A stretch of DNA of 42,394 nt from Gemmatimonadota bacterium (GTDB lineage: Bacteria > Gemmatimonadota > Gemmatimonadetes > Gemmatimonadales > GWC2-71-9): the NCBI GenBank assembly GCA_031365045.1, contig JANLXK010000283.1, forward strand, positions 1 to 42,394, written 5' to 3'. The notes under the pieces were generated by a model, which ran no database searches, was not told the origin of the DNA, and was given only the letters and a program-made list of their open reading frames with translations. Below, piece after piece: positions 172 through 40,198 of the stretch (positions are counted from its first letter, which is position 1; each line of letters opens with the position of its first letter). Made by a program: the position numbers and the translations under genes.

Positions 172-1011
172 ATGCGGAAGTGGATGTGGGGCGGGGCGTT
201 GTCCGGTTGCAGCCTGGTGGGCCTCTTCGGCTGCCACATCGATTCACGGCCTCCGACGGCCCCCGTGGCCACCGCGAGCGTCCTGGAGCCCTCGGCCGAT
301 CACCCCCTCCGCGCTGAGATCCTGCGTGGACGGGCGATCGTCGAAGCGACAGCCGAGAGCCTGCCGGGACACGTCGGCAACGCACTCCGGTGCACCTCCT
401 GTCACCTCGACGGCGGGACGCGCGAAGTGCTGGGGTGGAAAGGGGTCTACGCCCGTTTTCCTCAGTATCGGAGCCGGAGCGCCTCGATCCAGGTGATCGA
501 GGACCGAGTCAACGATTGTTTGGAGCGGAGCCTGGCCGGGAAGGGGCTCTCGCCGGGCAGCGCCCCGCTGAAGGCGATCGTGGCGTACCTTGCCTGGCTC
601 TCACGCGACGTCCCGGTGAGCGGCGGGATCGCGGGCGGGAAGATCACGGCGCCCTTCGAGTCGTTGTACCCCGACACCATGCGAGGCGCAGGGCTTTTCG
701 TCGCCAACTGCGCGCGCTGTCACGGGGTGAATGGCGAGGGAAGCGCGCTGGGGACGCCGCTCTGGGGGGATCGATCGTTCACGATCGGGGCCGGGATGGC
801 CCGGTACCGCACGGCGGCGGCCTTTGTACATGCCAACATGCCCCGTGATATGCCGGGGACGCTCACCTGGCAGGACGCGTTGGACGTCGCGGCTTGGGTG
901 GATAGCAGGCCGAGAGGTGATTTCGCTGGGAAAGAGAAGGACTGGCCTCGGGGAGGGGCGCCGCCCGACACCCCCTATCCGACCACTGGAACGAAGCCGG
1001 GCAGACCCTAA
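172..1011 (+). CDS. di-haem c-type cytochrome, TsdA/COG3258-like (thiosulfate dehydrogenase family), probable lipoprotein
   Basis: ORF 37..1011. Two CxxCH haem motifs (CTSCH 391-405, CARCH 709-723). The block RFPQYRSR...RVNDCLERSLAG is typical of TsdA-type cytochromes. ATG 172 gives the signal/lipobox MRKWMWGGALSGCSLVGLFGC; alternative starts are ATG 133 and 37. Confidence 0.7.
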   Translation: MRKWMWGGALSGCSLVGLFGCHIDSRPPTAPVATASVLEPSADHPLRAEILRGRAIVEATAESLPGHVGNALRCTSCHLDGGTREVLGWKGVYARFPQYRSRSASIQVIEDRVNDCLERSLAGKGLSPGSAPLKAIVAYLAWLSRDVPVSGGIAGGKITAPFESLYPDTMRGAGLFVANCARCHGVNGEGSALGTPLWGDRSFTIGAGMARYRTAAAFVHANMPRDMPGTLTWQDALDVAAWVDSRPRGDFAGKEKDWPRGGAPPDTPYPTTGTKPGRP

Positions 1012-1818: not shown

Positions 1819-2928
1819 GTGACCGAACCCCTGGACCGGATCCGCAGCTTGGACGCCTTTCGCGGCCTCACGATCGCGGGGATGATCCTGGTCAACAACC
1901 CGGGGTCGTGGGGGGCCATCTATTCACCGCTGGAGCACGCCGCCTGGAACGGATGGACCCCCACCGACCTGATCTTCCCCTTCTTCGTCTTCATCATGGG
2001 GATCTCGGCGGCTCTGGTGATCCCGCGTCGGCTCGAAGCGGGGATGTCAAAGGGGAAGGTCGCCCGGCAGGTGGTGGTGCGGGCGACCCTCCTTTTCCTG
2101 ATCGGTCTCGCGCTCAACGGCTTCCCGCACTACGACCTCGCCACCATCCGGGTGATGGGGGTCCTTCAGCGGCTGGCGCTCTGCTATCTCGCCACCGGCG
2201 TCCTCGTGACTTTCACCACGCCGAGGGCCTGGCGGCACTGGGTCGCGGCATTGCTCCTCGGGTACTGGCTGGCGCTCCTCCTCATTCCCGTGCCGGGATA
2301 CGGCGCCGGCGTGCTCGCGCCCGACGGCAACCTGCCCCAGTATGTCGACGCCCTCGTCTTCGGTGCTCATCGTTGGCTGCCAGCGTGGGACCCGGAAGGG
2401 ATCCTCAGTACCTTCCCCGCCGTCGCGAGCTGTCTCCTCGGCGCGCTCACCTGGCGCTGGTTGCGGGAGGAGCGGAGCGTGGCGGAGCTGGCGCTGGGAT
2501 TGATGCTGGGCGGGGACGCGCTGCTGCTGCTGGGCTGGGCCTGGAGCTGGGTCTTCCCGATCAACAAGAATCTCTGGAGCAGCTCCTACGTGCTCTGGAC
2601 CGCCGGGATGGCGATGCTGGTGCTGGCCGCGCTGATGTGGGCGATGGATGGACTGGGAAAGGTGCGGTGGGCGCGGCCGCTGGAGCACTATGGCACCAAT
2701 GCGCTGGCGGTCTTCGTGCTGTCGGGACTCATCGGACGGCTGATCACGCTGATCAAGATCGGGGAGGGCGCGCAGGCGACCACCCTCAAGGGGTGGATCT
2801 TCAACAACTTCTTCCTGTCGTGGGCGAGCGAAGTGAACGCGTCGCTGGCCTTCGCGGTCGCGGTAGTGCTGCTCTTCTGGGGAGTGGCGTGGGGGATGTG
2901 GCGGAAGGGGTGGTTGGTACGGCTGTGA
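1819..2928 (+). CDS. membrane acyltransferase, heparan-alpha-glucosaminide N-acetyltransferase-like (DUF5009/DUF1624 family)
   Basis: RIRSLDAFRGLTIAGMILVNNPGSWG...WNGWTPTDLIFPFFVFIMG is the characteristic N-terminus of this family, followed by many TM helices. I start at GTG 1819, after the repeat hairpin. The track start at 1723 lies inside the repeat element. Confidence 0.75.
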   Translation: MTEPLDRIRSLDAFRGLTIAGMILVNNPGSWGAIYSPLEHAAWNGWTPTDLIFPFFVFIMGISAALVIPRRLEAGMSKGKVARQVVVRATLLFLIGLALNGFPHYDLATIRVMGVLQRLALCYLATGVLVTFTTPRAWRHWVAALLLGYWLALLLIPVPGYGAGVLAPDGNLPQYVDALVFGAHRWLPAWDPEGILSTFPAVASCLLGALTWRWLREERSVAELALGLMLGGDALLLLGWAWSWVFPINKNLWSSSYVLWTAGMAMLVLAALMWAMDGLGKVRWARPLEHYGTNALAVFVLSGLIGRLITLIKIGEGAQATTLKGWIFNNFFLSWASEVNASLAFAVAVVLLFWGVAWGMWRKGWLVRL

Positions 2929-3020
2929 GGAGTGAGGAGTGAGGAGTAAGGAGTAAGGACTGGGAAGTGAGAGGGGGTGCAGGTATCTCCACTTCTTACT
3001 CCTCACTTCTAACTTCTCAC
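2925..3020. repeat. tandem-repeat-armed palindrome B: GTGAGGA/GTAAGGA-type heptamers x7 (2925-2973) / TCCTCAC-type x5 (2986-3020)
   Basis: The arms are reverse complements apart from a few mismatches or wobbles. The element spans exactly from the stop of the + gene (2926-2928) to the stop of udk (3017-3019). It is a likely bidirectional terminator. Confidence 0.85.
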
Positions 3021-3649
3021 TGTCGCCGCCGGCGGAGCTCGTCCCGCACGCGCGCCTGGATCATCTCGACCCCGATCACGTTGTGCCCCCCTTCGGGGAT
3101 GATCACGTCGGCGAAGCGCTTGCTCGGCTCGACGAACTCCAGGTGCATTGGCCGGACGGTGGTGAGGTACTGGGTGATGATCGACTCGACCGAGCGCCCC
3201 CGCTCGGCGATGTCGCGTTGCATCCGGCGGATGAAGCGGACGTCGTCGGCCACGTCGACGAAGATCTTGATGTCGAAGAGGCGGCGGAGCCGCGGGTCGA
3301 CGAAGAGCAGGATCCCGTCGACCAGGATCACGTCCCGCGGCTCGACCCGGACGGTCGCCTCGGCGCGGGTATGGCGGGCGAAATCGTAGGTCGGCTTGTC
3401 GATCGCGACCCCGCTCGCCAGCGACTGCAGATGGGCGATGAGCAGGTCGTTGTCGAGGGCATTGGGGTGGTCGAAGTTGACCTTGGCCCGGTCCTCGAGC
3501 GGCAGGGCGTGGAGATCCTTGTAGTAGGCGTCCTGATCCATGAAAGCAGCGTCGACGCCGCCGAGGGCGCCGAGGATGGCGCGGGCAACGGTGGTCTTGC
3601 CCGAGCCGGAACCGCCGACCAGTCCGATGATCAATGGTTTCGATACCAT
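3017..3649 (-). CDS. udk: uridine kinase
   Basis: P-loop GLVGGSGSGKTT at the N-terminus. Full-length similarity pattern to Udk (NFDHPNALD, VILVDGIL, RRMQRDIAERGR). Confidence 0.9.
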   Translation of the reverse strand: MVSKPLIIGLVGGSGSGKTTVARAILGALGGVDAAFMDQDAYYKDLHALPLEDRAKVNFDHPNALDNDLLIAHLQSLASGVAIDKPTYDFARHTRAEATVRVEPRDVILVDGILLFVDPRLRRLFDIKIFVDVADDVRFIRRMQRDIAERGRSVESIITQYLTTVRPMHLEFVEPSKRFADVIIPEGGHNVIGVEMIQARVRDELRRRRQ

Positions 3650-3665
3650 GACGACAATCTAGAGG

Positions 3666-3803
3666 GGTAGGAAGGTAGGAAGGTAGGAAGGTAGGAAGGT
3701 AGGAAGGTAGGAAGGTAGGAGGGTAGGAGGGTAGGATGGTATGAGGGCACGCTCTCGGGCCGGGGGCACCCCTCCTACCTTCTTACCCTCCTACCATCCT
3801 ACC
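3666..3803. repeat. tandem-repeat-armed palindrome C: GGTAGGAA octamers x10 (six perfect, 3666-3745) / CTCCTACC-type x4 (3772-3803)
   Basis: Counted directly. It fills nearly all of the divergent intergenic region between udk (start 3649) and the Rieske oxygenase gene (start 3812). Confidence 0.9.
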
Positions 3804-3811
3804 TTTAGTCG

Positions 3812-4936
3812 ATGCAGCGCCCCGCCACTCTCCCCGCGTTCAGCCCCGCCGACCTTGAGGTCGTCCCGGTCACCCGATCGGACACGATCCCGTCGAGCTG
3901 GTATACCGACCCCGCCTTCCATCAGGTGGATCGGGATGCGGTCTTCGCCCAGAGCTGGCAGAACGTCGGCGCCGCCGACCAGGTGCGAGAGCCGGGCCAG
4001 TTCATTGTAGGCACCGTGGCCGACAACCCGGTGATCGTGGTGCGCGGGCAGGGGGGGGAGCTCCGCGCCTTCTATAACGTGTGCAAGCACCGGGGCGGCC
4101 CCCTGGCGCTCTGCGACGGCCAGGCCAAGTCGCTCCGCTGTCAGTATCACGGGTGGACCTATCTTCTCGACGGTTCCCTCCGTGGCGTCCCCAAGATGGA
4201 CCGGAGCGAGCTTTTCGATACGAAGGACTTCGGCCTCGTCCCGATCAAGGTCGACCTCTGGGAGGGCCAGGTCTTCGTGCACCTCGGCGCCGACCCGCGG
4301 CCGGTGGCGGAGACCTTCCAGGGGATCGTCGAGCGGATCGCGCCGACCAAGGTGGGTGGGCTCACGTTCGCCCGGCGGGTGGACTACGAGGTCGGGTGCA
4401 ACTGGAAGGTGTACGTCGACAATTTCCTCGAAGGGTATCACGTCCCCTTCGTGCACCCGGAGCTCGTGTCGCTCTTCGAGTATTCGCAGTACCGGACCGA
4501 GGTCTTCGACCGGTACAACCTGCAGTGGACCCCGCTCGACGCGAGCACGCCGTCACCGTACAGCGGGAACGGGGCCGAGGATGGGGGTGGCCAGGCCTTC
4601 TATTACTGGGTGTGGCCCAACTTCATGCTCAACATCCTTCCGGGTCGGCTCCAGACCAATGTCGTCGAGCCGCTCGGGCCGGACCGGTGCCGCATCGTGT
4701 TCCGGTACTTCTACAAGGACATCGAGAGCGCCGAAGGGAAGGCGCGGCTCGAGGCCGATCACGCGTACAGTGAGAAGGTGCAGGTCGAGGACCGGGAGAT
4801 CTGCGAACGGGTGCAGGCGGGGCTGGGGAGCAGGGCGTACGACAAGGGGAGGTTCAGCCCGGAGATGGAAGCGGGCGTCTGGCATTTCCAGTCGCTGCTC
4901 AAGGGGGCTTATGCCGAATTAGTCGGTGGTCGGTAG
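3812..4936 (+). CDS. Rieske [2Fe-2S] non-haem iron oxygenase, alpha-subunit type
   Basis: Rieske motif CKHRGGPL...CQYHGWTY. C-terminal catalytic domain with NWKVYVDNFLEGYHVPFVHP (His ligands). Confidence 0.85.
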   Translation: MQRPATLPAFSPADLEVVPVTRSDTIPSSWYTDPAFHQVDRDAVFAQSWQNVGAADQVREPGQFIVGTVADNPVIVVRGQGGELRAFYNVCKHRGGPLALCDGQAKSLRCQYHGWTYLLDGSLRGVPKMDRSELFDTKDFGLVPIKVDLWEGQVFVHLGADPRPVAETFQGIVERIAPTKVGGLTFARRVDYEVGCNWKVYVDNFLEGYHVPFVHPELVSLFEYSQYRTEVFDRYNLQWTPLDASTPSPYSGNGAEDGGGQAFYYWVWPNFMLNILPGRLQTNVVEPLGPDRCRIVFRYFYKDIESAEGKARLEADHAYSEKVQVEDREICERVQAGLGSRAYDKGRFSPEMEAGVWHFQSLLKGAYAELVGGR

Positions 4937-5010
4937 TCGATCGCTAATGTTGGGTAAGTTGGAGTGCGTCTCTCGTCTCTCGTCTCTCGTCTCTCGTGCT
5001 CTCGTGCTCT
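4922..5010. repeat. single-arm tandem repeats D: GTCGGTN x3 (4922-4942), then CGTCTCT x4 plus CGTGCTCT x2 (4967-5010)
   Basis: Counted directly. No reverse-complement arm is nearby. The oxygenase stop TAG (4934-4936) lies inside the first repeat. Confidence 0.8.
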
Positions 5011-5012
5011 CA

Positions 5013-5459
5013 ATGAATCGCAGCCGTGTCCTCGTCTCACTCGTCTTTCTCGCCGCCTGTGGTCATTCGCTCTGGCCGTCGACCACCGTGGTGACCCCGG
5101 TGGCGGTGTCGGAGACCTACCGCTGCGTCGACTCGATCTCCGGCACGCTCGGGTACAAGCCGTTCCAGGCGAAGCCGGCCGAGGGGTTCCTGCGGACCCG
5201 GAAGGCGGTGGTCGAGAGTTCGCCCGACGTCTTCGACCAGCAGCCGTATGACCAGCTGCGGGCGGAGATCGTCTCCGGTACCGCAGGGACCAGCCTGACC
5301 ATCACCGCTGAGTCCTATACCGAGCAGGTGTCGCGGCGGGGACGGGAAGAGGTGGAGAAGGAGGCACGCGCCGGTGTGATCGCCGATGCGAAAGTGGTGC
5401 TCGATGCCTGTGGGACCTCGACGCAGGTGCGCCCGGACCGGGTGCCGAACGTCAACTAG
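5013..5459 (+). CDS. hypothetical lipoprotein
   Basis: MNRSRVLVSLVFLAACG lipobox at ATG 5013. The longer track ORF (4926) would read through a tandem repeat. Confidence 0.55.
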   Translation: MNRSRVLVSLVFLAACGHSLWPSTTVVTPVAVSETYRCVDSISGTLGYKPFQAKPAEGFLRTRKAVVESSPDVFDQQPYDQLRAEIVSGTAGTSLTITAESYTEQVSRRGREEVEKEARAGVIADAKVVLDACGTSTQVRPDRVPNVN

Positions 5460-17324: not shown

Positions 17325-17333
17325 GGTGGAAAT

Positions 17334-17420
17334 GTAAGGAGTAAGGAGTGAGGTGTGAGGAGGTTGCCAGTCGGGACGAGTCCGTTCCTGACTCCTCACT
17401 CCTCACTCCTCACTTCTCAC
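17334..17420. repeat. tandem-repeat-armed palindrome F: GTAAGGA/GTGAGGA x4 (17334-17361) / TCCTCAC x4 (17393-17420)
   Basis: Same heptamer family as element B. It lies between two co-directional minus-strand genes. The stop of the upstream gene (17417-17419) is in the last unit. Confidence 0.85.
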
Positions 17421-20588: not shown

Positions 20589-21026
20589 ATGGCGCGTGCG
20601 ATCGAGATCCTCGTGGTCGAGGACGAAGTGGCGGTGCAGCGGCTGGTGGATGTGGTCTTCCGCGTCGCGTCGGACGATTTCCTGGTGCAGCGGGTCGGGT
20701 CGCTGGCGGCGGCGAGCAAGGCGGTGATGACGCTGACCCCCGACCTGATCCTGCTCGACCTCGACCTCCCCGACGCCACGGGGCTCGAGGCGGTGAAGGC
20801 GCTGCTGCACCTCGCGCCCCGGTCGGCCATCGTGATCCTTACCGCCAGCACCGACGACGCGATGGCCCATGAGGCCATCCGGCTGGGCGCGCAGGACTGG
20901 CTCCAGAAGAACGCCGACCTGCAGCGGCTCCTGCCGCGCGCCGTCACCTTCGCGGTGGAGCGTCAGCGGCGGCGGGTGGGGCTGCTGGCCGAGATCGCCA
21001 GGTTGCAGGAGAGCCCTGAAGGGTAG
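20589..21026 (+). CDS. stand-alone response regulator receiver protein (CheY-like)
   Basis: ILVVEDE...LILLDLDLPDATG...VILTAS...K pattern of a receiver domain. No output domain. Starts 8 nt after the reductase gene. Confidence 0.8.
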   Translation: MARAIEILVVEDEVAVQRLVDVVFRVASDDFLVQRVGSLAAASKAVMTLTPDLILLDLDLPDATGLEAVKALLHLAPRSAIVILTASTDDAMAHEAIRLGAQDWLQKNADLQRLLPRAVTFAVERQRRRVGLLAEIARLQESPEG

Positions 21027-21132
21027 GAAGGTAGGAAGGGAAGAAGGTAGGAAGCGATGCGGGGCCCGACCACCACATTGGTGCTCTGGCCCCGCTTCAC
21101 TTCCTACCCTCCTACCTTCGTCCCTTCCTACC
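21022..21132. repeat. tandem-repeat-armed palindrome G: GGTAGGAA-type x4 (21022-21053) / TTCCTACC-type x4 (21101-21132), inner stem GCGGGGCC/GGCCCCGC
   Basis: Same octamer family as element C. It lies between convergent genes. The response-regulator stop TAG (21024-21026) is in the first unit. Confidence 0.85.
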
Positions 21133-21140
21133 CAGGTCGC

Positions 21141-40094: not shown

Positions 40095-40198
40095 GAGGTG
40101 AGACGTGAGGAGACAAGAGGAGACAAAAGGAGACGATGAGACCAGAACTCCGAGACTTCGGTCGTCTCCTCCCGTCTCCTCCCGCCTCCTCCCGTCTC
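40095..40198. repeat. tandem-repeat-armed palindrome H: NNNAGGAGAC decamers x5 (40095-40142) / GTCTCCTCCC x3.5 (40164-40198)
   Basis: Read directly. It lies between acpS and the FTR1 fusion gene on the same strand. It is a likely terminator or insulator. Confidence 0.85.

What the first reader, a model, noticed from the sequence alone, without database searches (positions are those of the whole stretch)
3666..3803. Asymmetric copy of the element fills a divergent promoter region (udk and Rieske oxygenase)
Element C cannot be a terminator. It lies between two divergent start codons (3649 on the minus strand, 3812 on the plus strand) and occupies about 138 of the 162 intergenic nt. The left arm has 10 octamers, six of them perfect GGTAGGAA copies. 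The right arm has only 4. Almost no non-repeat sequence is left for two promoters. Transcription therefore probably initiates inside or reads across the repeats, giving both mRNAs CU-rich (CCUACC)n leaders. Six perfect 8-nt units are a classic substrate for slipped-strand mispairing. Copy-number change would alter promoter geometry or leader length, which could produce phase-variation-like control. This is inference only.
Basis: partly seen in the sequence, partly recalled or inferred. Interest (0 to 1): 0.6.

Follow-up and report, generated by a model that had tools for sequence, protein, structure and literature searches.

The report
Repeat hairpin between two leaderless promoters
The lopsided 8-base repeat hairpin between the uridine kinase and Rieske oxygenase genes is real, but it is one recently stretched copy of a hairpin family found at more than 230 places in this soil bacterium, and it most likely lies upstream of both genes' conserved start signals rather than acting as an on/off switch.

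Summary
Window 3666-3745 holds ten GGTAGGAA-type octamers, six of them perfect, and 3770-3803 holds four inverse units. Together they fill 138 of the 162 nt between divergent udk (ATG 3649, minus strand) and a Rieske oxygenase (ATG 3812).

- **Family:** it is one of at least 233 inverted short-repeat hairpins in this 2.8-Mb Gemmatimonadales MAG. The kind is already described in Xanthomonas, and this scan has reported it before on other pieces of this genome.
- **Not a terminator here:** the family is about 2-fold depleted in divergent gaps, but 14 copies sit in them.
- **Copy number does change:** among close relatives the same gap holds 4/4 units of the same octamer, 3/3 of another octamer, 4/5 of a third, a one-armed 11-unit heptamer array, or no array. 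Only this genome has the long perfect run, so the left arm expanded recently.
- **Leaders and phase variation are not supported:** TAGATT and TACCTT lie exactly 6 nt before the two ATGs and are kept in all ten close versions of the gap. That spacing is the genome-wide signature of leaderless genes. The repeats therefore probably lie upstream of both transcription starts, and unit gain or loss does not move the -10 boxes.

The parts
3017..3649 (-). udk-like uridine kinase gene, start ATG at 3649-3647
   Evidence: ORF list. Pfam PF00485 at 3e-44. The N-terminus is conserved in orthologues.
3656..3661 (-). Candidate -10 box TAGATT of udk (plus strand AATCTA), 6 nt before the ATG; predicted leaderless start
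   Evidence: Conserved as TA(G/C/A)(A/T)TT, 5-7 nt before the udk ATG, in all ten close versions of the gap and in G063. TANNNT is enriched genome-wide at this spacing. The consensus is TAnnTT. No transcript data.
3666..3745 (.). Left (G-rich) arm: ten octamers GGTAGGAA/G/T
   Evidence: Only the inner four or so units pair with the right arm in the folds.
3666..3713 (.). Run of six perfect GGTAGGAA units, on the outer side next to udk; a lineage-specific expansion
   Evidence: 0-mismatch matches. The perfect run of 6.9 units is the 6th longest of 466 arms. It is absent from the sister lineages, which have four imperfect units.
3746..3769 (.). GC-rich spacer (loop) with its own small stem-loops
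   Evidence: Folds. The spacer sequence is not conserved in relatives.
3770..3803 (.). Right (C-rich) arm: four inverse units (CCCTCCTA CCTTCTTA CCCTCCTA CCATCCTA CC)
   Evidence: It differs from the arm in G125 at only two positions.
3800..3805 (+). Candidate -10 box TACCTT of the Rieske gene, 6 nt before the ATG; it overlaps the last repeat unit
   Evidence: TAC(C/T)TT lies 5-6 nt before the ATG in all ten close versions of the gap, including the array-free L032 and L116. Genome-wide leaderless signature. No transcript data.
3812..4936 (+). Rieske non-haem iron oxygenase alpha subunit (annotated in relatives as choline monooxygenase or ring-hydroxylating dioxygenase alpha)
   Evidence: Pfam PF00355 and PF00848. 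Source names.

Best explanation
Element C is one copy of a genome-wide family of intergenic hairpins. Each has two arms built from inverted arrays of 7-, 8- or 10-nt units, with the G-rich strand always running 5'->3' toward the centre. This copy lies in the gap between two divergent genes that are most likely transcribed as leaderless mRNAs. Each ATG is preceded at 6 nt by a conserved TAnnTT -10 box: TAGATT for udk, just outside the left arm, and TACCTT for the oxygenase, formed by the last unit of the right arm. The repeats therefore occupy the -13 and further upstream region of both promoters. In this genome that region carries almost no -35 information, so the element is tolerated there, and it is not part of either mRNA. 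A roughly symmetric 4/4-unit GGTAGGAA element was already present in the common ancestor of this species and its nearest relatives. In this lineage alone, replication slippage added about six perfect units to the outer part of the left arm, which produced the asymmetry. Because the array is periodic and lies outside the -10-to-start segment, unit gain or loss changes only the distance between the two promoters and the length of the unpaired G-rich tail. It does not change the core promoter geometry.

Shown here: the anatomy, the family membership, the turnover among relatives, the conservation of the two boxes, and the genome-wide leaderless signature. Inferred: the actual transcript starts, slippage as the mechanism, and the lack of a regulatory effect.
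For: Family and context:
- There are at least 233 inverted array pairs in the 2.79-Mb MAG: 170 with period 7, 50 with period 8 and 13 with period 10. The GGTAGGAA unit is the commonest, with 22-31 loci sharing a canonical 34-nt, four-unit arm.
- Polarity is G-rich arm first in 176 pairs against 1.
- By context, 96 pairs lie between co-directional genes, 33 between convergent genes and 14 between divergent genes. The baseline gaps of 60 nt or more number 411, 124 and 114 respectively, so divergent gaps are depleted (OR 0.44, p=0.006) but not empty.

Leaderless signature:
- TANNNT occurs at spacers of 5, 6 and 7 nt before ATG starts that have an upstream gap of 50 nt or more at 3.7%, 7.7% and 2.2%. 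Background is about 0.5%.
- The consensus is TAnnTT, and the -35 region carries at most 0.33 bit per position.
- No SD-like 4-mer precedes either gene, and no sigma-70 -35/-10 pair is found.

Orthologous gaps:
- L112-115 (Rieske 95% identical): 4/4 imperfect GGTAGGAA units.
- L032 (94%) and L116 (91%): no arrays.
- L002/G125 (88%): 4/4 units.
- L119: 4/5 GGCGAGGN units.
- L120 and L033: 3/3 GCGGGTAG units.
- L118: an unrelated palindrome.
- In all of these, only the two TAnnTT boxes at 5-7 nt from the ATGs are kept.
- In the tree, G125 is sister to the clade that holds both the array-bearing and the array-free lineages. The element is therefore ancestral, was lost once, and was expanded only in G000.

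Other support:
- The perfect run of 6.9 units is in the top 1.5% of arms.
- Three other elements (C269:6160, C353:317, C440:25687) also have leaderless-type starts on both sides.
Against: - No transcript data are available. The -10 boxes and leaderless starts are inferred from motif, spacing and conservation only.
- Each outward-reading unit of both arms contains TACCTT, which itself fits the -10 consensus.
- Hairpin potential is retained in 7 of 10 gap versions, and the unit sequence changes in both arms together (GGTAGGAA/TTCCTACC versus GCGGGTAG/CTACCCGC). This could reflect selection for pairing rather than neutrality.
- Leaderless-type starts have an element within 60 nt upstream more often than other starts (20% vs 6.4%). 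This hints at a link with promoters, although my start calls are crude.
- In the more distant congener G063 the oxygenase start has no such box.
Confidence: 0.62

Rival explanations
1. This is a phase-variable promoter or 5'-UTR repeat. Transcription would start inside or across the arrays. Both mRNAs would carry (CCUACC)n leaders that fold against the G-rich arm. Slippage of the six perfect units would then switch or grade expression, as with the heptamer repeat hairpin in the hmw1A 5'-UTR of Haemophilus influenzae.
For: - Six perfect units lie in a ten-unit arm.
- Unit number differs among relatives.
- Every outward-reading unit contains the -10-like TACCTT.
- The hmw1A hairpin has ten repeats on its left arm paired with a G-rich right arm (abstract of PMC12721329), which is a similar anatomy.
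Against: - Conserved TAnnTT boxes lie 6 nt before both ATGs, outside or at the edge of the arrays, with no SD sequence. This predicts leaderless mRNAs.
- The arrays do not lie between the -35 and -10 regions or between the -10 box and the start.
- Lineages without arrays keep both genes and both boxes (L032 and L116).
- The genes are housekeeping-type rather than surface or contingency genes.
- The same architecture occurs at more than 230 loci in all gene contexts.
Confidence: 0.08
2. The GGTAGGAA-type element is a dispersed, two-sided promoter cassette. Its C-rich arms would carry outward-facing TACCTT -10 boxes every 8 nt and would supply or regenerate the -10 boxes of leaderless genes on either side. 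On this reading the element is the promoter region rather than a passenger in it.
For: - The oxygenase -10 box is the last repeat unit.
- At C3:1053 the terminal unit likewise gives TACCTT-6-ATG, and solitary CCTACCTT units serve as the box at C523:12923 and in the array-free L032.
- 8 of 57 sides of GGTAGG-family elements abut a leaderless-type start, against 22 of 367 for other units (OR 2.6, p=0.046).
- 20% of leaderless-type starts have an element within 60 nt upstream, against 6.4% of other starts.
Against: - The enrichments are weak and depend on crude start calls.
- 19% of the element sides that face a gene start are leaderless-type. The genome-wide figure for ATG starts with a comparable gap is about 14%.
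- Most unit families contain no TA at all.
- The udk box TAGATT lies outside the array and is conserved in relatives whose arrays have other units.
- The family is depleted in divergent gaps.
Confidence: 0.12
3. The palindrome is a selected structural element of the divergent promoter pair. One possibility is a cruciform extruded by the negative supercoiling that two divergent transcription units generate, coupling or insulating the two promoters. Another is a binding platform for a nucleoid protein.
For: - A strong hairpin or palindrome of some kind lies between the two boxes in 7 of 10 gap versions, even when the sequence is unrelated, as in the 35 kcal/mol palindrome of L118.
- The unit changes are matched in both arms.
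Against: - L116 and L117 have no significant fold (z -0.1 and +1.2), and L032 has only a small GC stem.
- The extra six units in G000 are unpaired, so the expansion does not serve pairing.
- The 8-nt period does not match the helical repeat, so the units would not present one face to a protein.
- Matched arms can also arise through the mechanism that generates the arrays, without selection.
Confidence: 0.1
4. The asymmetry is partly an assembly artefact: the true unit number in the organism differs from the ten in the MAG consensus.
For: The perfect run of 48 nt or more exceeds small k-mers, and the Logan contig from SRR20217195 that encodes the identical oxygenase ends inside the run.
Against: A 76-nt array is shorter than ordinary reads and is normally resolved by large-k assemblers. 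The inner imperfect units and the right arm are identical in the independent contig. Other loci and relatives also show one-sided arrays of 9-13 units.
Confidence: 0.05

Closest known systems
Inverted pairs of G-rich heptamer simple-sequence repeats (GGGAATC) in Xanthomonas campestris and X. axonopodis (Rehm et al. 2015, PMC4692102)
   Same: Both are short G-rich units in tandem, intergenic, with 70-75 pairs per genome 'in convergent orientation', one array on each strand. That is the same G-first polarity as here (176 to 1). Both are under-represented between divergent ORFs. In both, repeat length differs between related genomes while the type is preserved, and no regulatory role was found.
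   Different: Here there are dozens of different units (7, 8 and 10 nt) instead of one, and the unit at a given locus can be replaced between congeners. The GGTAGGAA unit has only GG tracts, so the three-tetrad G-quadruplex studied there does not apply. The host belongs to a different phylum (Gemmatimonadota).
hmw1A/hmw2A promoter-proximal (ATCTTTC)n repeat of Haemophilus influenzae, a phase-variable SSR in a 5'-UTR hairpin (PMC12721329)
   Same: Both are non-triplet SSRs upstream of a gene. In both, about ten repeats form the left arm of a long hairpin against a complementary right arm, and the tract is slippage-prone.
   Different: There the repeat is transcribed within the 5'-UTR, is cut by RNase III, and its length grades expression of a surface adhesin. 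Here conserved -10 boxes 6 nt from the ATGs predict that the repeats are not transcribed with the genes. The genes are housekeeping-type, the element is one of more than 230, and within-population variation is untested.
REP/REPIN elements with RAYT transposases (e.g. PMC3116915)
   Same: Both are abundant intergenic palindromic repeats. The GGTAGGAA subfamily has about 30 copies with a shared 34-nt arm pattern. The genome encodes five Y1_Tnp (PF01797) matches.
   Different: The arms here are tandem arrays of many different units rather than one conserved palindrome. None of the Y1_Tnp genes is flanked by an array pair. Length changes come in whole units, which fits slippage rather than transposition.
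Cyanobacterial STRR heptamer repeats and Nostoc GGGGA(T/C)T repeats
   Same: Both are tandem heptamer-class repeats concentrated in intergenic DNA, with function unsettled (my own knowledge for STRR).
   Different: In Nostoc only a few are paired as inverted repeats. Here pairing is the rule.

Membership tests
Inverted G-rich SSR pairs (Xanthomonas GGGAATC type) | Tandem array of a 6-9 nt G-rich unit | tested here: met
   (GGTAGGAA)x9.5 with 97% matches.
Inverted G-rich SSR pairs (Xanthomonas GGGAATC type) | A second array of the complementary unit close by, in convergent orientation (G-rich strand 5' of the centre on both strands) | tested here: met
   The arms are 92% complementary. Genome-wide, the G-rich arm comes first in 176 pairs against 1.
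Inverted G-rich SSR pairs (Xanthomonas GGGAATC type) | Many intergenic copies per genome, under-represented between divergent ORFs | tested here: met
   At least 233 pairs. Divergent gaps hold 14 of 143 classified pairs, against 114 of 649 baseline gaps (OR 0.44, p=0.006).
Inverted G-rich SSR pairs (Xanthomonas GGGAATC type) | Repeat length differs between related genomes at the same locus | tested here: met
   10/4 against 4/4, 3/3, 4/5 and none.
Inverted G-rich SSR pairs (Xanthomonas GGGAATC type) | G3 tracts able to form a three-tetrad G-quadruplex | tested here: not met
   The unit has only GG tracts.
Phase-variable promoter or 5'-UTR SSR (contingency locus) | Repeat tract lies between -35 and -10, between the promoter and the start codon, or in the ORF, so that unit number changes spacing, leader or frame | tested here: not met
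   The predicted -10 boxes lie 6 nt from both ATGs, outside or at the edge of the arrays, and are conserved in ten gap versions. This rests on prediction, not on mapped starts.
Phase-variable promoter or 5'-UTR SSR (contingency locus) | Several tract lengths coexist within a population | not testable with these tools
The Logan contig breaks inside the run.
Phase-variable promoter or 5'-UTR SSR (contingency locus) | Long uninterrupted tract | tested here: inconclusive
   There are 6.9 perfect units, in the top 1.5% for this genome. The hmw tracts found in nature have at least 11 units (section heading in PMC12721329).
Phase-variable promoter or 5'-UTR SSR (contingency locus) | The controlled gene is a surface, restriction-modification or other contingency function | tested here: not met
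   The genes are a uridine kinase and a Rieske oxygenase.
REP/REPIN | Cognate RAYT (Y1 transposase) gene flanked by the repeats | tested here: not met
   There are five PF01797 matches, and none has an array pair within 2.5 kb.
Intrinsic terminator hairpin | Lies downstream of a gene's 3' end, with a GC stem followed by a T run | tested here: not met
   Both neighbours start at the element. No terminator-like site lies in 3000-5200.
Known RNA families (Rfam 15) | Match at gathering score | tested here: not met
   0 matches in the whole window.

The most novel reading that the evidence does not exclude
The GGTAGGAA-type hairpin is a dispersed, self-renewing two-sided promoter module for leaderless genes. 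Its C-rich arms would present outward-facing TACCTT -10 boxes every 8 nt, so that insertion or slippage creates, moves or multiplies transcription starts for the genes on both sides. The ten-unit arm facing udk would then be a graded, slippage-tunable promoter array.
Probability: 0.1. Interest if true: 0.65.

Novelty: new member of a known kind. Interest (0 to 1): 0.3.

Why it matters
This case shows how a very abundant, fast-changing repeat hairpin can sit in the most crowded kind of regulatory DNA without breaking it. In this Gemmatimonadales lineage promoters appear to need little more than a TAnnTT box placed 6 nt before the start codon, so almost the whole space between two divergent genes is free to be filled, swapped and stretched by repeats.

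The locus has practical uses:
- Eleven versions of one gap form a compact natural series for measuring the rates of unit gain, unit loss and unit replacement in this repeat class.
- It offers a clean test bed for whether such arrays affect transcription at all, since the 10/4, 4/4, 3/3 and array-free versions share the same two core boxes.

It also adds a sequence-based case for widespread leaderless expression in Gemmatimonadota. I found no transcript-start data for this phylum.

Tried and rejected
- **Read-level copy-number heterogeneity and RNA evidence:** Nothing can be said about within-population variation or real transcript starts.
- **Exact-protein look-ups for other assemblies of the same strain:** the udk protein is not on record. 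The oxygenase gave one Logan contig, which breaks inside the perfect run and so says nothing about unit number.
- **Stability from four records of the sister lineage with identical gaps (L112-115):** rejected as strong evidence. The gap lies in a tract of about 1 kb that is almost identical between the two strain variants (3 mismatches per 1000, against 94.3% identity overall). L112/L113 and L114/L115 are also near-duplicates of each other.
- **Rfam:** no family matches.
- **Sigma-70 -35/-10 scan and terminator scan of 3000-5200:** nothing found.
- **A -35 element inside the arrays:** the hexamer 17 nt upstream of each box is ACCTTC. The only TTnnnA hexamers sit at 14- or 22-nt spacings, so there is no convincing -35. 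The genome's own -35 signal is weak anyway.
- **RAYT association:** Y1 transposase genes exist but are not flanked by array pairs.
- **Family-level orthologues at about 60% identity (L003-L030):** udk is not next to the oxygenase there, so they are uninformative for this gap.
- **Earlier-findings look-up by sequence:** it returned only unrelated eukaryotic purine repeats. One look-up by words failed on syntax.
- **Iteron or regulator-site array:** considered and set aside. The 8-nt period does not follow the helical repeat, and the same unit occurs at about 30 unrelated loci.

Full report
**1. Observation**

From 3666 there are six perfect GGTAGGAA units (3666-3713), followed by GGTAGGAG, GGTAGGAG, GGTAGGAT and GGTATGAG, ending at 3745. 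A 24-nt GC-rich spacer follows. Four inverse units occupy 3770-3803.

- TRF reports (GGTAGGAA)x9.5 at 97% matches and a 4.2-copy inverse array.
- A two-unit probe with up to 2 mismatches matches 18 times in the window, against 0.03 expected by chance.
- The arms are 36 nt long and 92% complementary.
- Both strands fold far better than shuffles: RNA -80.5 kcal/mol (z -5.3) and -69.8 kcal/mol (z -6.7); DNA -29.1 kcal/mol (z -4.0).
- In every fold only the inner four or so left units pair. The outer perfect units stay single-stranded.

The neighbours are a uridine kinase (PF00485, 3e-44) on the minus strand, starting at 3649, and a Rieske/Ring_hydroxyl_A oxygenase on the plus strand, starting at 3812. 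The element covers 138 of the 162 intergenic nt.

**2. It is a member of a genome-wide family**

The window is contig C192 of a 567-contig, 2.79-Mb, 68% GC MAG. Homologue names and earlier notes of this scan place it in Gemmatimonadales.

- TRF over the genome shows a large excess of period-7 and period-8 arrays. I found 233 cases in which an array is followed within 120 nt by an array of the reverse-complement unit: 170 with period 7, 50 with period 8 and 13 with period 10.
- The GGTAGGAA unit is the commonest. About 30 loci share a canonical arm of four units, AGGTAGGAA GGGAAGAA GGTAGGAG GGTAGGAAG.
- A typical arm has 4.1 units and a perfect run of only 2.1 units. The left arm of element C (9.5 units, perfect run 6.9) is the 6th longest perfect run among 466 arms. 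Only 24 of 233 pairs have a copy-number ratio of 2 or more.
- The G-rich arm lies 5' of the centre in 176 pairs and 3' in 1. This property is the same on both strands and does not depend on gene direction.
- Rehm et al. (PMC4692102) describe the same arrangement for GGGAATC arrays in Xanthomonas. They report 70-75 pairs 'in convergent orientation', under-representation between divergent ORFs, length differences between two species, and no demonstrated role.
- This scan had already reported the family on other pieces of this genome and made the same comparison.

**3. Gene context**

I used a crude GC3-based gene caller of my own (2144 genes, 79% coverage). It could classify 143 pairs: 96 lie between co-directional genes, 33 between convergent genes and 14 between divergent genes. 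The baseline gaps of 60 nt or more number 411, 124 and 114.

Divergent gaps are therefore depleted about two-fold (OR 0.44, p=0.006) but are not empty. The family as a whole is not confined to gene ends.

**4. Where the promoters probably are**

Neither gene has an SD-like motif. No sigma-70 -35/-10 pair and no terminator-like site is detected in 3000-5200. Each ATG is, however, preceded at exactly 6 nt by a TAnnTT hexamer.

- For udk the hexamer is TAGATT (plus strand AATCTA, 3656-3661), which lies 4 nt outside the left arm.
- For the oxygenase it is TACCTT (3800-3805), which is the end of the last repeat unit.

Genome-wide, TANNNT is sharply enriched at just this distance from ATG starts that have an upstream gap of 50 nt or more. 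The frequencies are 3.7%, 7.7% and 2.2% at spacers of 5, 6 and 7 nt, against about 0.5% elsewhere. This is the established signature of leaderless genes, in which the -10 box sits just before the start codon. That reading is general knowledge, as used for example by gene-start predictors that model leaderless classes.

The 66 such candidates that have no array nearby give the consensus TAnnTT and only a faint -35 signal of at most 0.33 bit per position. A survey of anti-SD use lists Gemmatimonadetes with a low value of 22 in its table, which I read as the percentage of SD-led genes (PMC10783764).

**5. Comparative test**

I collected eleven versions of this same divergent gap from congeneric genomes, metagenome contigs and public assemblies.

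| Source | Rieske identity to G000 | Content of the gap |
|---|---|---|
| G000 (this window) | 100% | 10/4 GGTAGGAA, 162 nt |
| L112-115 | 95% | 4/4 imperfect GGTAGGAA, 114 nt |
| L032 | 94% | no arrays; a solitary CATCCTACCTTT and an unrelated GC stem |
| L116 | 91% | as L032 |
| L002 = G125 | 88% | 4/4 GGTAGGAA with a different loop |
| L117 | 85% | decayed GNCGCCGA-like units |
| L118 | 84% | an unrelated 35 kcal/mol palindrome |
| L119 | 83% | 4/5 GGCGAGGN |
| L120, L033 | 82% | 3/3 GCGGGTAG |
| G063 | 68% | a one-armed (GATAGCT)x~11 array |

In all ten close versions the only conserved intergenic sequence is the two boxes. On the minus strand, TA(G/C/A)(A/T)TT lies 5-7 nt before the udk ATG. 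On the plus strand, TAC(C/T)TT lies 5-6 nt before the oxygenase ATG. G063 keeps the udk box but not the oxygenase box.

A protein tree places G125 as sister to the clade that contains G000, L112/114, L032 and L116. By parsimony the GGTAGGAA element is therefore ancestral to that group. It was lost in the L032/L116 line, and its left arm was expanded only in G000.

Elsewhere on the same syntenic contig, G000 and G125 (about 77-80% nucleotide identity) have arrays at the same gene boundaries but often with different units. Turnover is thus the norm for the family.

**6.

Slippage-proneness is supported on the evolutionary scale, by the unit-number differences and by a lineage-specific perfect run. 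The proposed consequences are not supported.

- If the mRNAs start at the ATGs, there are no CU-rich leaders.
- The arrays lie outside the -10-to-start segment. Because they are periodic, gaining or losing units leaves the sequence next to each box unchanged. Only the distance between the two promoters and the unpaired G-rich tail change.
- Lineages without arrays keep both genes and both boxes, so the array is dispensable.
- The genes are not of the contingency type.

There ten repeats form the left arm of a hairpin, and RNase III processing and repeat number set expression (PMC12721329). The anatomy is similar, but in that system the repeat is transcribed, which my evidence argues against here.

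Each outward-reading unit contains TACCTT, which is itself a -10-like hexamer. And my leaderless inference is sequence-based only.

**7. Is the element more than a passenger?**

Some observations hint at a link with promoters.

- 30 of 424 element sides directly abut a leaderless-type start. So do 23 of the 123 sides that face a gene start.
- Three other elements have such starts on both sides.
- GGTAGG-family sides abut such starts more often than sides of other families (8/57 vs 22/367, p=0.046).
- Leaderless-type starts have an element within 60 nt upstream in 20% of cases, against 6.4% for other starts (OR 3.7).

These figures depend on crude start calls, since longest-ORF starts can run through the stop-free C-rich arm. 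The 19% figure is also not far above the genome-wide share of about 14% for leaderless-type ATG starts. I therefore treat a promoter-donor role as a minority reading.

Hairpin potential is present in 7 of 10 gap versions, and unit changes are matched in both arms. However, two versions have no significant fold, and the G000 expansion is unpaired. Selection for pairing at this locus is not demonstrated.

**8. Checks that limited the claims**

- The four sister-lineage records have identical gaps, but the gap lies in a ~1-kb tract that is nearly identical between the two strain variants. This says little about stability.
- The unit number in G000 rests on the MAG consensus. The only independent contig ends inside the run.
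- Five Y1 transposase genes exist in the genome, but none is flanked by array pairs, so there is no REP/RAYT link.
- Rfam has no match.

**9. Verdict**

The feature is real and well described. It is one unusually expanded copy of a known kind of inverted simple-repeat hairpin, in a new phylum and in a multi-unit form that this scan has already reported. It sits between two conserved -10 boxes of probably leaderless divergent genes. The asymmetry is a recent one-sided expansion. A phase-variation role is unlikely but untested at the read level.

Noticed in passing
whole genome G000 (e.g. window 2925-3021, 17334-17420, 21022-21133, 40107-40198): In 176 of 233 inverted array pairs the G-rich arm lies 5' of the centre on both strands, against 1 with the opposite polarity. 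Purine-rich arm first: 132 against 5. This layout resembles two G-strand-out arrays fused head to head. It is independent of gene direction, and its cause (mechanism of origin, or selection) is open.
   Followed up: partly
G000 contigs C193:14530-14640, C238:215-321, C266:8350-8453, C483:211-307; also L118:1075-1145: A second dispersed palindromic element of about 100 nt (cores GAACCGTCC... and ...GAGGGACCT/GAAGGACCT, dozens of genomic hits) is nested exactly in the loop of four GGTAGG-type hairpins. A related long palindrome replaces the arrays in the orthologous udk/oxygenase gap of L118. The genome also has five Y1_Tnp (PF01797) matches that might belong to it.
   Followed up: partly
L126 (G063:C85) 800-890, minus strand: In a third congener the same udk/oxygenase gap holds a one-armed array of about eleven GATAGCT heptamers, eight of them perfect, with no inverse arm. 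This gap is a repeated site of array birth and expansion.
   Followed up: partly
window 4967-5011 and 5014: A (CGTCTCT)x6 array lies inside the longest ORF 4926-5459. It sits immediately upstream of ATG 5014, whose product begins MNRSRVLVSLVFLAACG, a lipoprotein-like signal. The true start is probably 5014, with the array in the upstream gap. The stop-free C-rich arms inflate longest-ORF start calls.
   Followed up: no
window 17325-17345: At the element 17334-17420 the neighbouring minus-strand gene has TACATT-6 nt-ATG. The complement of that -10 box (AATGTA) overlaps the first GTAAGGA unit, just as AATGTAGGCGG does in L033. The first unit of an array often begins inside the -10 box, which may mean that arrays are seeded from promoter sequence.
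   Followed up: no
G000 C332:9265-9300: Next to a GGTAGG-type element, TACATT is followed after 7 nt by GGCGCGGTGGCAGAGTGGTT, which looks like the 5' end of a tRNA. This may be a promoter placing the transcript start at the mature tRNA 5' end. It was not checked with a tRNA finder.
   Followed up: no
L112 vs L114, positions 383-1382: Two strain variants that differ by 5.7% overall share a ~1-kb tract with only 3 mismatches. The tract covers udk, the repeat gap and the first 180 nt of the oxygenase gene. This suggests a recent recombination tract centred on this locus.
   Followed up: partly
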